Shown here: positions 14,733-20,000 of the stretch, one piece after another
Layout: each line of letters starts with the position of its first letter
Position numbering within the stretch: the first letter of the stretch is position 1
Origin: an uncultured virus (IMG/VR IMGVR_UViG_3300046010_015841)
Lineage: Duplodnaviria > Heunggongvirae > Uroviricota > Caudoviricetes
DNA: 20,000 nucleotides
Direction: 5' to 3' (one strand)
IMG/VR virus record: IMGVR_UViG_3300046010_015841
Program-made: the position numbers and the translations under genes
The notes under the pieces: model-generated
The model's database searches: none
What the model saw: the letters and a program-made list of their open reading frames with translations, nothing else
What the model was told of the DNA's origin: nothing

Positions 14733-15536
14733 TTATATATTTACATACCCCTGTTCGTAATATGAATTATATAATTGAACATAAACAACCTTTAACTTTT
14801 TAATTATTTTAGTGATTTGGGGTGTTTCAACATCAACCATCTCACGTATATAAATGTAAAGGGCTTTTTTATTGAATATGTCTAATGATTCACATTTACG
14901 AAATAGCTCCATTATAGCATCAGCTGTTTTAGCATCATTTTCTTTAGGGAATAATTTATTAAGATTTTTATCTATATACTTAATATACAATCCCATGAAC
15001 TCTGTAAGGCTATAGTCTTGGCTATAATGCTCATTTAGTGTTTCTTCTTTAATTTTTTTATCATCATCTACTTCGGCCAAGTCACCTTTGTCTTGTAGTT
15101 TTTGATAATTTTTCTTATTTTTAAGGATAAGGTAACGCTTTGCAATAGTACCAAAATATGAATAAGCTTTACCTTTATGTGGTTTATAAAGCTTAAGTTT
15201 TTCAAGTAAAAATGCAATTACTTCCTGCTGCATATCTTCTACGGATTCACCATCCATATAATAAAACTTAAACGTATGAATAATATTTTGGGTTAATTTA
15301 AAAAACCCATACTCAATACGTTCGCGATACACAGTATTTCTAAACTCCTGGTCATCTGAGGCTACATATTCCACAATAGCGTTTTGAGTATCCTCAGTAA
15401 AATAAGTATTAGATGTTTTAGGTTTACGTTTGCGTACTTTTCCAGATTTAGTATACTCGACAGTTACTAAATTATCTTCTACTAGAAGACTATTGGTTTG
15501 GTTGTTGTCCACGCTTTTTATTAATGTTAAAGTCAT
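14733..15536 (-). CDS. Phage sigma factor (gp55-like late sigma, sigma region 2)
   Basis: YFTEDTQNAIVEY...KLTQNIIHTFKF...EDMQQEVIAFLLEKLKLYKPHKGKAYSYFGTIAKRYLI resembles sigma regions 2.1-2.4. The true start may be GTG at 15512 (A-rich leader, less overlap). Confidence 0.75.
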   Translation of the reverse strand: MTLTLIKSVDNNQTNSLLVEDNLVTVEYTKSGKVRKRKPKTSNTYFTEDTQNAIVEYVASDDQEFRNTVYRERIEYGFFKLTQNIIHTFKFYYMDGESVEDMQQEVIAFLLEKLKLYKPHKGKAYSYFGTIAKRYLILKNKKNYQKLQDKGDLAEVDDDKKIKEETLNEHYSQDYSLTEFMGLYIKYIDKNLNKLFPKENDAKTADAIMELFRKCESLDIFNKKALYIYIREMVDVETPQITKIIKKLKVVYVQLYNSYYEQGYVNI

Positions 15537-17579: not shown

Positions 17580-17820
17580 AAAGAAAGGTTTCACCCCCTA
17601 TAGATATTTGGCGAAAGGGGTATAATGGATTTTGTGGAGCCAAAATCTAGCAATATTTTGTTGGATATTTGTATATATGCGCGCCTTGGGTAAAGATCGT
17701 AGTTTATCTGTGAGTACGGGGCAGGCCGCGACATATATGCGGCCCGTCGATGGACCGCTATTGCCGTGGGGTCATAACGATAGCGGAGCGCTATCGCCCC
17801 GCTATCGAGTATCCTTATTT
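17580..17820. other. GC-rich structured non-coding island (ncRNA, origin or packaging site candidate)
   Basis: 17711-17810 is 62% GC by hand count, with several inverted repeats and four CCGCTATCG-like boxes. Confidence 0.55.
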
Positions 17821-17828
17821 TCTTTTTT

Positions 17829-18521: not shown

Positions 18522-18546
18522 TAAATATAAGGAGGGGAATTGTGTT
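18522..18546 (-). promoter_or_regulatory. AAC-box early promoter
   Basis: AACACAATT-CCCCTCCT-TATATTTA. The 23-bp segment 18508-18530 is identical to 18812-18834. Confidence 0.7.
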
Positions 18547-18554
18547 CCCCTCCT
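18522..18554 (-). terminator. Stem-loop / intrinsic terminator overlapping a promoter
   Basis: 10-bp perfect stem AGGAGGGGAA (18530-18539) / TTCCCCTCCT (18545-18554), 6 nt after the stop of 18561-18806, followed by TATATTT on the minus strand. Confidence 0.65.
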
Positions 18555-18856: not shown

Positions 18857-18879
18857 TGGACCCCCTAGAAAGGGGGTCC
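18850..18879 (-). terminator. Intrinsic terminator
   Basis: 9-bp stem GGACCCCCT (18858-18866) / AGGGGGTCC (18871-18879) followed by ATTTGTT on the minus strand, just after the stop at 18884. Confidence 0.7.
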
Positions 18880-19108: not shown

Positions 19109-19142
19109 TAAAGATATGAAGAGGGGTTTAGTTCCCCTCTTC
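19109..19142 (-). promoter_or_regulatory. AAC-box early promoter embedded in a stem-loop
   Basis: AACTAAACC-CCTCTTCA-TATCTTTA; 9-bp stem GAAGAGGGG (19118-19126) / CCCCTCTTC (19134-19142) spanning the upstream stop codon. Confidence 0.7.
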
Positions 19143-19482: not shown

Positions 19483-19512
19483 TAAATATACACAAAAAAA
19501 TTGTGTTTCAAA
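19483..19512 (-). promoter_or_regulatory. AAC-box early promoter with -33 TTTG
   Basis: TTTG-A-AACACAATT-TTTTTGTG-TATATTTA, 18-nt spacer. Confidence 0.75.
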
Positions 19513-19693
19513 ATGTTTCCCTAATTAATACTTCCACTCTAGCTTGTGTGTACTTTGCTTTTACATTTTCATACATCTCCATTGCTTCAATTAGTTGTGT
19601 TCTTACTGTACCTGATTGAAACTCATTATCAACCTTAATGTAATAGGTAACATCACCTATTGTATTAAATTCTTTAACTAATTCAATTGTCAT
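19508..19693 (-). CDS. Early-type hypothetical protein
   Basis: 61 aa, leader AAAATTAAAAGTT-ATG. Confidence 0.75.
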   Translation of the reverse strand: MTIELVKEFNTIGDVTYYIKVDNEFQSGTVRTQLIEAMEMYENVKAKYTQARVEVLIRETF

Positions 19694-19712: not shown

Positions 19713-19742
19713 TAAAGATATGTAAAATAATTATGTTTACAA
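19713..19742 (-). promoter_or_regulatory. AAC-box early promoter with -33 TTG
   Basis: TTG-TA-AACATAATT-ATTTTACA-TATCTTTA, 19-nt spacer. Confidence 0.75.
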
Positions 19743-19754
19743 GCTGAAAATTTG

Positions 19755-19785
19755 TTTGGAAACCAAATAATCTTTTTTACATTTA
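19755..19785 (+). promoter_or_regulatory. Plus-strand AAC-box promoter
   Basis: TTTG-GA-AACCAAATA-ATCTTTTT-TACATTTA, 19-nt spacer; same architecture on the opposite strand. Confidence 0.65.
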
Positions 19786-19789
19786 CATT

Positions 19790-19875
19790 GTCATTTGGAC
19801 GGGCGCCCTATGAAATGGGTGGAGGGATCAGAGGTAGGCTGCCTAAGACGTCTTCCACTATCCCCAAAATAAAAT
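19790..19875. ncRNA. Candidate small structured RNA between convergent promoters
   Basis: About 52% GC over 19791-19870. Stem GGTGGAGGG (19818-19826) / TCTTCCACT (19851-19859), inner TAGG/CCTA hairpin, closing TTTGG/CCAAA. No credible ORF. Confidence 0.45.
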
Positions 19876-19880
19876 TGGTC

Positions 19881-19912
19881 TAAAATTACGAATAAGAATT
19901 TGGTTTCCCAAA
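19881..19912 (-). promoter_or_regulatory. Minus-strand AAC-box promoter
   Basis: TTTG-GGA-AACCAAATT-CTTATTCG-TAATTTTA, 20-nt spacer. Confidence 0.65.
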
Positions 19913-19923
19913 TCATACCAGGA

Positions 19924-19964
19924 CAACAAAAGACCCAGTTCATTAATTAAAACGAACCGGGTCT
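19924..19964 (-). terminator. Intrinsic terminator
   Basis: Minus strand AGACCCGGTTCGTT-ttaatt-AATGAACTGGGTCT (14 bp, two GU pairs) followed by TTTGTTG. Confidence 0.75.
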
Positions 19965-20000
19965 AGTTGATAACCCCTAAATTACCAACAATTAAGCCAC

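What the first reader, a model, noticed from the sequence alone, without database searches (positions are those of the whole stretch)
19755..19912. Small GC-rich structured element transcribed from two convergent promoters (candidate sense/antisense RNA pair)
Seen: two near-identical promoters face each other (+ strand TTTGGA-AACCAAATA-N8-TACATTTA at 19755-19785; - strand TTTGGGA-AACCAAATT-N8-TAATTTTA at 19912-19881). They bracket an ~85-nt GC-enriched segment with no credible ORF. The + promoter is the only clear plus-strand promoter I found in the window. The - promoter sits just behind a strong terminator (19924-19964), and the next gene has its own promoter, so this one appears dedicated to the non-coding segment. 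The main stem needs three G-U pairs on the + strand, which favours the + RNA as the folded one. Inference: an early sRNA with a cis-antisense partner, an RNA decoy against host defence, or a primer/antisense pair at a replication origin.
Basis: partly seen in the sequence, partly recalled or inferred. Interest (0 to 1): 0.75.

Follow-up and report, generated by a model that had tools for sequence, protein, structure and literature searches.

The report
Conserved two-hairpin phage small RNA
The GC-rich patch is the gene for a small folded non-coding RNA made early by a group of uncultured T4-like phages of Bacteroidota; it fits no catalogued RNA family, and the second, facing promoter probably serves to stop or limit it rather than to make a second folded RNA.

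Summary
Both promoters are real Bacteroidota sigmaA-type promoters. The + one drives a structured small RNA starting at about 19790: a 3-bp 5' hairpin, an RGG linker, a 5-bp hairpin, then a nearly invariant unpaired purine-rich tail. I found 50 distinct versions (31 clusters), up to five per contig. On 44 aligned members 97.7% of cells pair and 7 of 9 pairs show two-sided changes. The facing promoter occurs in 24 of 50 members, always 54-58 nt from the core; most others have a converging terminator hairpin there. The antisense-only part is not conserved, so a second folded RNA is unlikely. No Rfam family, shared complementary target, conserved ORF or host homologue was found. The RNA was not found in four complete or near-complete relatives, which argues against an essential origin primer. 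Best guess: an early trans-acting RNA that offers a fixed surface to a host protein, with its 3' end set by oncoming RNA polymerase. Function and expression are untested. The scan reported this stretch before in another genome (e1-5971528).

The parts
19755..19785 (+). Sense promoter, Bacteroidota sigmaA type (-33 TTTG at 19755; -7 box at 19778-19785); predicted +1 = G19790
   Evidence: Of 31 true members picked by the core alone, 30 match the box pattern 36-62 nt upstream and L160 has a variant box. Counting five bases from the box end gives a purine at +1 in 47 of 50 and a pyrimidine at -1 in 47 of 50.
19790..19800 (+). P1: 5'-terminal 3-bp hairpin (19790-19792 with 19798-19800); loop length varies widely
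   Evidence: All three pairs show two-sided changes: 5, 8 and 8 cells of 44. The +1 base pairs with the base before the linker in 40 of 50.
19801..19803 (+). RGG linker, conserved and unpaired in the model
   Evidence: G-G invariant in 29 of 29.
19804..19821 (+). P2: 5-bp hairpin (19804-19808 with 19817-19821), invariant closing C-G, then a G.U wobble; loop and stem length variable
   Evidence: 99.5% of cells paired, 4 of 5 pairs with two-sided change, G.U in 38 of 44 at pair 2. Mean pairing probability 0.55 on + against 0.07 on -.
19822..19836 (+). Near-invariant unpaired purine-rich core (RAGRGAUCAGAGGUA)
   Evidence: In a scan with a pattern for the 5' half only, all 7 low-GC hits with a promoter box (of 29 hits; 22 were high-GC chance matches) carry this tail, one with a single A-to-G change.
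19837..19848 (+). Partly conserved tail (nGYUG then pyrimidines); inferred 3' end of the RNA about 19845-19850
   Evidence: Column counts. The end position is inference from collision geometry.
19881..19912 (-). Facing promoter (-7 box 19888-19881; predicted +1 = 19876)
   Evidence: A box ending 54-58 nt from the G of the core GATC occurs in 24 of 50 members (10 of 31 clusters); chance is about 0.03 per member.
19921..19964 (-). Intrinsic terminator of the upstream 83-aa gene; shields the RNA gene from read-through
   Evidence: 14-pair stem with T tail; kept in L004 with a shorter loop.
19713..19742 (-). Divergent early promoter of the next gene (61 aa, 19508-19693), back to back with the sense promoter
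   Evidence: A divergent promoter is found in 38 of 50 members.
19992..20000 (-). 3' end of an 83-aa basic protein gene with RGR(K/P) repeats (continues to 20243, beyond the window); frequent neighbour, not an obligate partner
   Evidence: No Pfam family. Relatives G309 and G310 encode a relative of it but gave no match to the RNA model.

Best explanation
The + strand carries a stand-alone gene for a small RNA of about 55-60 nt (longer if it runs to a downstream hairpin), transcribed at once after infection by host sigmaA RNA polymerase. Its first nucleotide closes a 5' hairpin, which would protect the 5' end. P1 and P2 are a scaffold whose sequence can change freely. The conserved bases on both sides of the P2 base (RGG, C-G, G.U) and the unpaired RAGRGAUCAGAGGUA form a fixed surface that most likely binds a host protein, as a decoy or modulator, for example of a defence ribonucleoprotein or an RNA-binding regulator. 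The gene sits against the flow of an otherwise single-strand genome and, in the window's type, has no terminator of its own. Oncoming polymerase, at a facing promoter at fixed distance or at the terminator of a converging gene, probably stops it just after the conserved part and keeps it from silencing the upstream early gene; interference or antisense pairing would also limit its level. Shown: the family, the fold, the strand, the promoter geometry. Inferred: transcription, 3' end, protein partner, purpose.
For: Family of 50 distinct sequences (L347 dropped). Covariation: 97.7% paired, 65 two-sided cells, 0 of 500 shuffles as high, slid controls 35-56%. Strand from G.U and folding probabilities. 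+1 coincides with the first base of P1. Up to 5 divergent copies per contig, each with a promoter, fits a dosage-dependent trans action. No complementary partner found: no perfect 10-mer outside the gene in 5 phage records, no shared target between G000 and G002, no shared host gene among 30 Bacteroidota loci with a 12-mer match, 35 taxonomically scattered 16-mer hits in GTDB. Sense box to core varies 37-56 nt while core to facing box is 54-58 nt. Collided polymerases have 26-31 bp between active sites (PMC13082048 section 10), which would end the RNA at +19..+24 from the core GATC, where conservation fades. Of 26 members without a facing promoter, 19 have a hairpin of -8 kcal/mol or better, 3 a same-direction promoter and 4 neither.
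Against: No expression data. No partner protein is identified, and no RT, Cas or Ro60-type Pfam hit was seen in 132 proteins of this 67%-complete contig. Target searches cover only perfect or near-perfect pairing and not the true host, so a short imperfect seed is not excluded. Elongating polymerase usually dislodges an open complex ('sitting duck' interference, PMC6593788, passages), so a facing promoter may be removed rather than act as a stop; the cryo-EM distances are for two elongating E. coli enzymes. Promoter and hairpin exclude each other partly for the trivial reason that they would occupy the same DNA, and about 3 of the 19 hairpins look weak or overlap a promoter. Members are related and the alignment was fitted to the structure, so pair counts are not independent events; the count of pairs with two-sided change was reached by 30 of 500 shuffles. 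P1 alone does not tell the strand (0.44 against 0.43).
Confidence: 0.42

Rival explanations
1. Trans-acting base-pairing sRNA: the unpaired core is a seed that pairs, imperfectly, with one or more host mRNAs to redirect host gene expression, as lambda LPR1/PreS does with dnaN.
For: An unpaired conserved stretch after hairpins is typical of seeds (own knowledge). Variation in the core is mostly A/G, compatible with pairing to U. Precedent: 10.1101/2024.10.31.621285 (abstract and outline).
Against: Invariant bases also lie 5' of P2 and at its base. No shared target in phage genomes, in 30 Bacteroidota loci, in GTDB 16-mer hits or in 16S regions. The 12-mer occurs in 93 of 301 Bacteroidota genomes against few control hits, but the reversed control contains CTAG (rare in bacteria, own knowledge), the rate is below a uniform expectation, and the 30 loci checked share no gene.
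Confidence: 0.25
2. Ligand-binding RNA: the two hairpins and invariant joints form a pocket that sequesters a small molecule, such as an immune signalling nucleotide, or a catalytic core.
For: Invariant junction nucleotides with freely varying stems are what aptamers and ribozymes show (own knowledge). Stand-alone early expression and extra copies suit a sponge.
Against: No Rfam riboswitch or ribozyme match even at E up to 5-10. No tertiary helix with covariation was found among all column pairs.
Confidence: 0.12
3. Cis-acting nascent RNA (HK022 put-like): two promoter-proximal hairpins modify the polymerase so that it makes a long antisense transcript across the early genes and shuts them down.
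For: Two hairpins directly at +1, mostly antisense to flanking genes (38 of 50 have at least one antisense flank and no sense flank); no own terminator in the window type.
Against: Facing promoters and converging hairpins at a fixed place look like stops. Two copies lie in the sense of both neighbours. Several copies per contig. put features are recalled, not tested.
Confidence: 0.08
4. Primer/antisense pair at a replication origin (ColE1 RNA II / RNA I type, or a T4-type R-loop origin).
For: Convergent promoters 87 nt apart; purine-rich RNA that would favour R-loops; a second conserved GC-rich non-coding island 2-5 kb away in G000, G002, G317 and G318.
Against: Facing promoter in only 24 of 50. 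1-5 copies in both orientations. Not found in G309, G310, W01, W02. No switch of GC skew at this place in the complete genome G002, though skew there follows the single coding strand.
Confidence: 0.06
5. Mimic of 16S rRNA helix 23 (690 loop) that titrates a small-subunit protein.
For: The commonest P2 loop and tail resemble the helix-23 stretch of Bacteroidota 16S; it was the best same-sense local match for L202 in 3 of 5 operon regions.
Against: Not significant: 4-14 of 100 shuffles scored as well for L202, and 46-91 of 100 for the window. The loop is unrelated in many members.
Confidence: 0.04
6. Not an RNA: a DNA site (palindromic operators) or a short peptide gene.
For: The window holds short palindromes and a 20-codon frame starting in the P2 loop.
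Against: The palindromes are not conserved. Conserved G.U pairs are strand-specific. An ATG in the best frame in only 19 of 50, and no synonymous variation in the core.
Confidence: 0.03

Closest known systems
Phage-encoded stand-alone small RNAs (lambda LPR1/PreS, 10.1101/2024.10.31.621285, abstract and outline seen; T4 RnaC/RnaD, recalled)
   Same: Small non-coding RNA in a phage, own promoter, no ORF.
   Different: No sequence or Rfam link. No base-pairing target found. The host phylum lacks Hfq (recalled). A review of phage sRNAs has no occurrence of 'Bacteroid' or 'Flavobacter' (PMC12197685, term search).
Face-to-face promoter pairs: coliphage 186 pR/pL (PMC6593788, passages seen), ColE1 RNA I/RNA II (recalled)
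   Same: Two promoters under 100 bp apart that must interfere and give complementary transcripts.
   Different: Here neither transcript leads to a dedicated gene, only one strand has a conserved fold, and the facing promoter is replaced by a terminator hairpin in many members.
Head-on collision termination of convergent genes in E. coli (PMC13082048, passages and section 10 seen)
   Same: Opposing polymerase at a fixed place could set the 3' end; 26-31 bp spacing fits where conservation ends.
   Different: There the collision is between two elongating enzymes at a hairpin; a promoter serving as the stop is my inference.
RNA decoys against defence: RNA anti-CRISPRs, pseudo-ToxI of phage phiTE (both recalled; small-RNA anti-CRISPRs mentioned in PMC12409349, passages seen)
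   Same: Early, promoter-driven, sometimes multi-copy phage RNA proposed to bind a host protein.
   Different: No match to a host RNA: no two-hairpin homologue in 151 Bacteroidota genomes (best hit lies inside a coding gene). No tandem repeats or pseudoknot.
Candidate structured RNAs from IMG/VR 3.0 (PMC10690425, passages and tables seen)
   Same: Same source type and size range (mean 67 nt, 8495 candidates).
   Different: Their alignments could not be read, so this motif may be among their unnamed candidates; none was matched.

Membership tests
Any Rfam 15 family | Match to a covariance model | tested here: not met
   Window: 2 weak hits elsewhere, none on the element. Seven homologue loci: 10 hits, all far below gathering score.
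Structured non-coding RNA (general) | Compensatory base-pair changes, strand-specific | tested here: met
   R-scape was not available.
Structured non-coding RNA (general) | No conserved reading frame | tested here: met
   ATG in best frame in 19 of 50.
Structured non-coding RNA (general) | Transcript detected | not testable with these tools
   No RNA holder listed; no evidence either way.
ColE1-type primer/antisense pair | Antisense promoter obligatory and antisense RNA with its own conserved stem-loops | tested here: not met
   24 of 50 have it; antisense-only part not conserved; P2 does not form on the - strand.
ColE1-type primer/antisense pair | Single copy, essential, at the origin | tested here: not met
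   1-5 copies; not found in 4 complete or near-complete relatives.
ColE1-type primer/antisense pair | R-loop and DNA start at the site | not testable with these tools
   Needs bench mapping.
Trans base-pairing sRNA | Conserved complementary target | tested here: inconclusive
   None found, but the host is unknown and imperfect seeds were not covered.
RNA anti-CRISPR / antitoxin mimic | Likeness to a host CRISPR repeat or antitoxin RNA | tested here: inconclusive
   No Rfam hit and no homologue in 151 Bacteroidota genomes; host repeats were not compared directly.
HK022 put-type antiterminator | Lies at the head of an operon in the same sense | tested here: not met
   Both flanks in the RNA's sense in only 2 of 50; 38 of 50 antisense.
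HK022 put-type antiterminator | Binds RNA polymerase and suppresses termination | not testable with these tools
   Needs in-vitro transcription.
16S helix-23 mimic | Similarity above chance, loop conserved | tested here: not met
tRNA / tmRNA | Cloverleaf detected | tested here: not met
   ARAGORN finds none in the window.

The most novel reading that the evidence does not exclude
A new class of phage counter-defence RNA: a short early aptamer-like RNA, amplified to several diverged copies in some phages, that neutralises a Bacteroidota defence protein or signalling nucleotide, and whose 3' end is set not by a terminator but by a dedicated facing promoter held at a fixed distance (a promoter used as a terminator).
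Probability: 0.17. Interest if true: 0.88.

Novelty: new variant of a known kind. Interest (0 to 1): 0.62.

Why it matters
Few small RNAs of lytic phages have a known job, and my searches found none described for phages of Bacteroidota. This one comes with a covariation-supported fold, a predicted start at a single base, a 15-nt invariant core to mutate, and a cultured relative that appears to lack it (Flavobacterium phage immuto, 53.5% capsid identity), so gain of function can be tested directly. If the facing promoter sets the 3' end, it would be a natural case of collision at a promoter used to define an RNA gene.

Tried and rejected
Single-sequence folding of the insert: no better than shuffles. 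RNAalifold on the first, misaligned MAFFT alignment gave only a 4-pair long-range helix with no two-sided change; its mean probability was 0.09, rejected. blastn of the element against cultured phages: chance hits only. Exact 23-mer in GTDB: none. The Flavobacteriales 20-nt match (L233) lies mid-gene in one genome, taken as chance. The weak model hit in immuto lies in an annotated CDS. Sequencing runs: no RNA holder listed; this is not evidence. The 23S rRNA search gave no answer, so most of 23S was not compared; only 16S and flanks were. The first hairpin detector missed several terminators and was rerun; the Fisher test is not used because promoter and hairpin compete for the same DNA. Rows dropped before counts: L154, L156, L157, L192, L193 (chance core hits, no hairpins) before A5; L347 (no P2) from the 51 rows; weak hits above E 1e-5 are not in A6 (44 rows). 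A promoter box was part of the filter, so promoter prevalence is taken. Resemblances to SAM-I, c-di-GMP-I, twister, SRP, ToxI and CRISPR repeats were recalled leads; none was supported by Rfam. Literal sequence search of papers: 0 hits. Supplement alignments of PMC10690425 could not be read and bear on novelty.

Full report
Setting. The window is G000:C1:40327-60326 of a 115-kb virus record, 67% complete. It is a T4-like myovirus: Gp23 capsid, T4-type portal, gp25, family-B polymerase, clamp loader. The nearest cultured relative by capsid protein is Flavobacterium phage vB_FspM_immuto, 53.5% identity. 157 of 159 ORFs in G000, and 213 of 216 in the complete relative G002, lie on one strand. The finding lies among small early genes that each carry a Bacteroidota sigmaA-type promoter (consensus and -12..-5 position from PMC9723704, passages). 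The host phylum is inferred from these promoters and that relative.

Observation. The promoters resemble each other (71% over 31 nt) because both follow the early consensus. Rfam and ARAGORN give nothing here.

A family. The neighbouring protein led to L004, which keeps both promoters and a core. Pattern scans of viral contigs and metagenomes and two covariance models gave 51 distinct rows, 50 after dropping the chance hit L347, in 31 clusters by downstream sequence. The contigs are 30-44% GC, with related early genes where I listed them. G314 holds five copies, G315 three and G316 two. G309 (100% complete), G310 (96%), immuto and W02 gave no real match, so the RNA looks accessory. No two-hairpin homologue was found in 151 Bacteroidota genomes and no exact 23-mer in GTDB.

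Structure and strand. The RNA is read from the window's + strand. Counting five bases from the end of the promoter box gives a purine at +1 and a pyrimidine at -1 in 47 of 50 each, and +1 pairs with the base before the linker in 40 of 50. The RNA therefore starts with a 3-bp hairpin P1 (19790-19800), then RGG, a 5-bp hairpin P2 (19804-19821) and an unpaired core (19822-19836). On 44 aligned members 97.7% of 386 cells pair, 65 cells show two-sided change, no shuffle of 500 reached the pairing or covariation score, and slid controls pair 35-56% (29 members). The ninth modelled pair uses the -1 base and is probably not in the RNA. Caveats: members are related, the alignment was fitted to the model, and the count of covarying pairs alone was reached by 30 of 500 shuffles. 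The G.U in P2 (38 of 44) and pairing probabilities (0.55 against 0.07) fix the strand; P1 does not (0.44 against 0.43). My core patterns bias the core towards invariance, so I scanned with the 5' half only: all 7 low-GC, promoter-bearing hits of 29 carried the core. No reading frame is conserved (19 of 50 at best).

The facing promoter. A -7 box on the other strand ends 54-58 nt from the G of the core GATC in 24 of 50 members, in 10 of 31 clusters, against about 0.03 expected per member. The distance from the sense box to the core varies from 37 to 56 nt, so the tight spacing looks selected. The 5' part of the antisense transcript is not conserved outside the window's clade. 19 of the 24 also have a separate promoter for the next gene. 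Of the other 26 members, 19 have a hairpin at about that place, usually behind an A tract as for a converging gene's terminator; 3 have a same-direction promoter and 4 neither. Collided E. coli polymerases sit with 26-31 bp between active sites (PMC13082048, section 10). A polymerase at the facing start (19876) would thus stop the sense enzyme at 19845-19850, just past the conserved part. Against this, elongating polymerase commonly removes an open complex (PMC6593788, passages), so the promoter may act by interference or antisense pairing instead. This step is inference.

What the RNA may do. I found no complementary partner: no perfect 10-mer outside the gene in five phage records, no common target between G000 and G002, no shared gene among 30 Bacteroidota loci with a 12-mer match, only scattered 16-mer hits in GTDB, and nothing above chance in 16S regions, where a likeness to helix 23 was matched by 4-14 of 100 shuffles at best. 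No RT, Cas or Ro60-type family appeared among 132 phage proteins. Invariant bases on both sides of a helix base, free stems and loops, early expression and extra copies point to a surface for a host protein (0.42). An imperfect base-pairing sRNA (0.25), a ligand-binding RNA (0.12), a put-like antiterminator (0.08), an origin primer (0.06), an rRNA mimic (0.04) and a non-RNA element (0.03) remain as rivals. That it is a real small-RNA gene I put at about 0.9; no transcript data were available.

Novelty. No Rfam match for the window or seven divergent loci. Paper searches for the motif class and the literal sequence found no description, and a review of phage sRNAs does not mention these hosts (PMC12197685, term search). 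PMC10690425 mined IMG/VR 3.0 for 8495 unnamed candidates (passages); its alignments could not be read, so the motif may be among them. The library lacks most subscription papers. The scan noted the same stretch earlier in another genome with the same reading (e1-5971528); I had found the family and fold before that look-up. New here, as far as its few lines show: the start site, the multi-copy contigs, the relatives without a match, and the fixed spacing of the facing promoter.

Verdict. A real, apparently undescribed structured small RNA of Bacteroidota-type T4-like phages; the facing promoter is an optional, position-conserved part, not a second folded RNA. Interest 0.62.

Noticed in passing
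window 17663-17826: A second GC-rich (64%) non-coding island with palindromes at the end of the early region. Its core (about 17740-17770) is kept in the complete genomes G318, G002 and G317, 2-5 kb from the RNA gene, which always points away from it; not matched in G309 or immuto. Candidate origin, packaging or other cis site.
   Followed up: partly
G000:C1:60570-61150 (just beyond the window): About 580 nt without a long ORF, with several short repeated motifs and a GC-rich patch at 60980-61098, upstream of the 83-aa gene.
   Followed up: no
window 19992-20000 and G000:C1:60318-60569: 83-aa basic protein with three RGR(K/P) repeats (AT-hook-like, label recalled), no Pfam family, relatives at 18 viral loci; often within 1.5 kb of the RNA gene.
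   Followed up: partly
G000:C1:77107-78470: Six tRNA genes and a tmRNA with tag peptide.
   Followed up: no
L163:1329-2056, L349:693-1210: Two RNA copies lie a few hundred bases apart in the same direction; in L163 they flank a 91-aa ORF read in the RNA's direction, a local block inverted against the genome's coding strand.
   Followed up: no
window 14733-15536: 267-aa gene with a weak Sigma70_r2 hit (E 5e-4, below cut-off), probably the phage late sigma factor, directly after the early region.
   Followed up: no
window 18530-18554, 18858-18879, 19118-19142: Early genes are built as cassettes of terminator hairpin, promoter and A-rich leader, repeated with similar sequence.
   Followed up: no
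W02 (PP395634.1): A record annotated as a Microcystis phage has a capsid protein 47.8% identical to this Bacteroidota-type phage; its host label may deserve a check.
   Followed up: no
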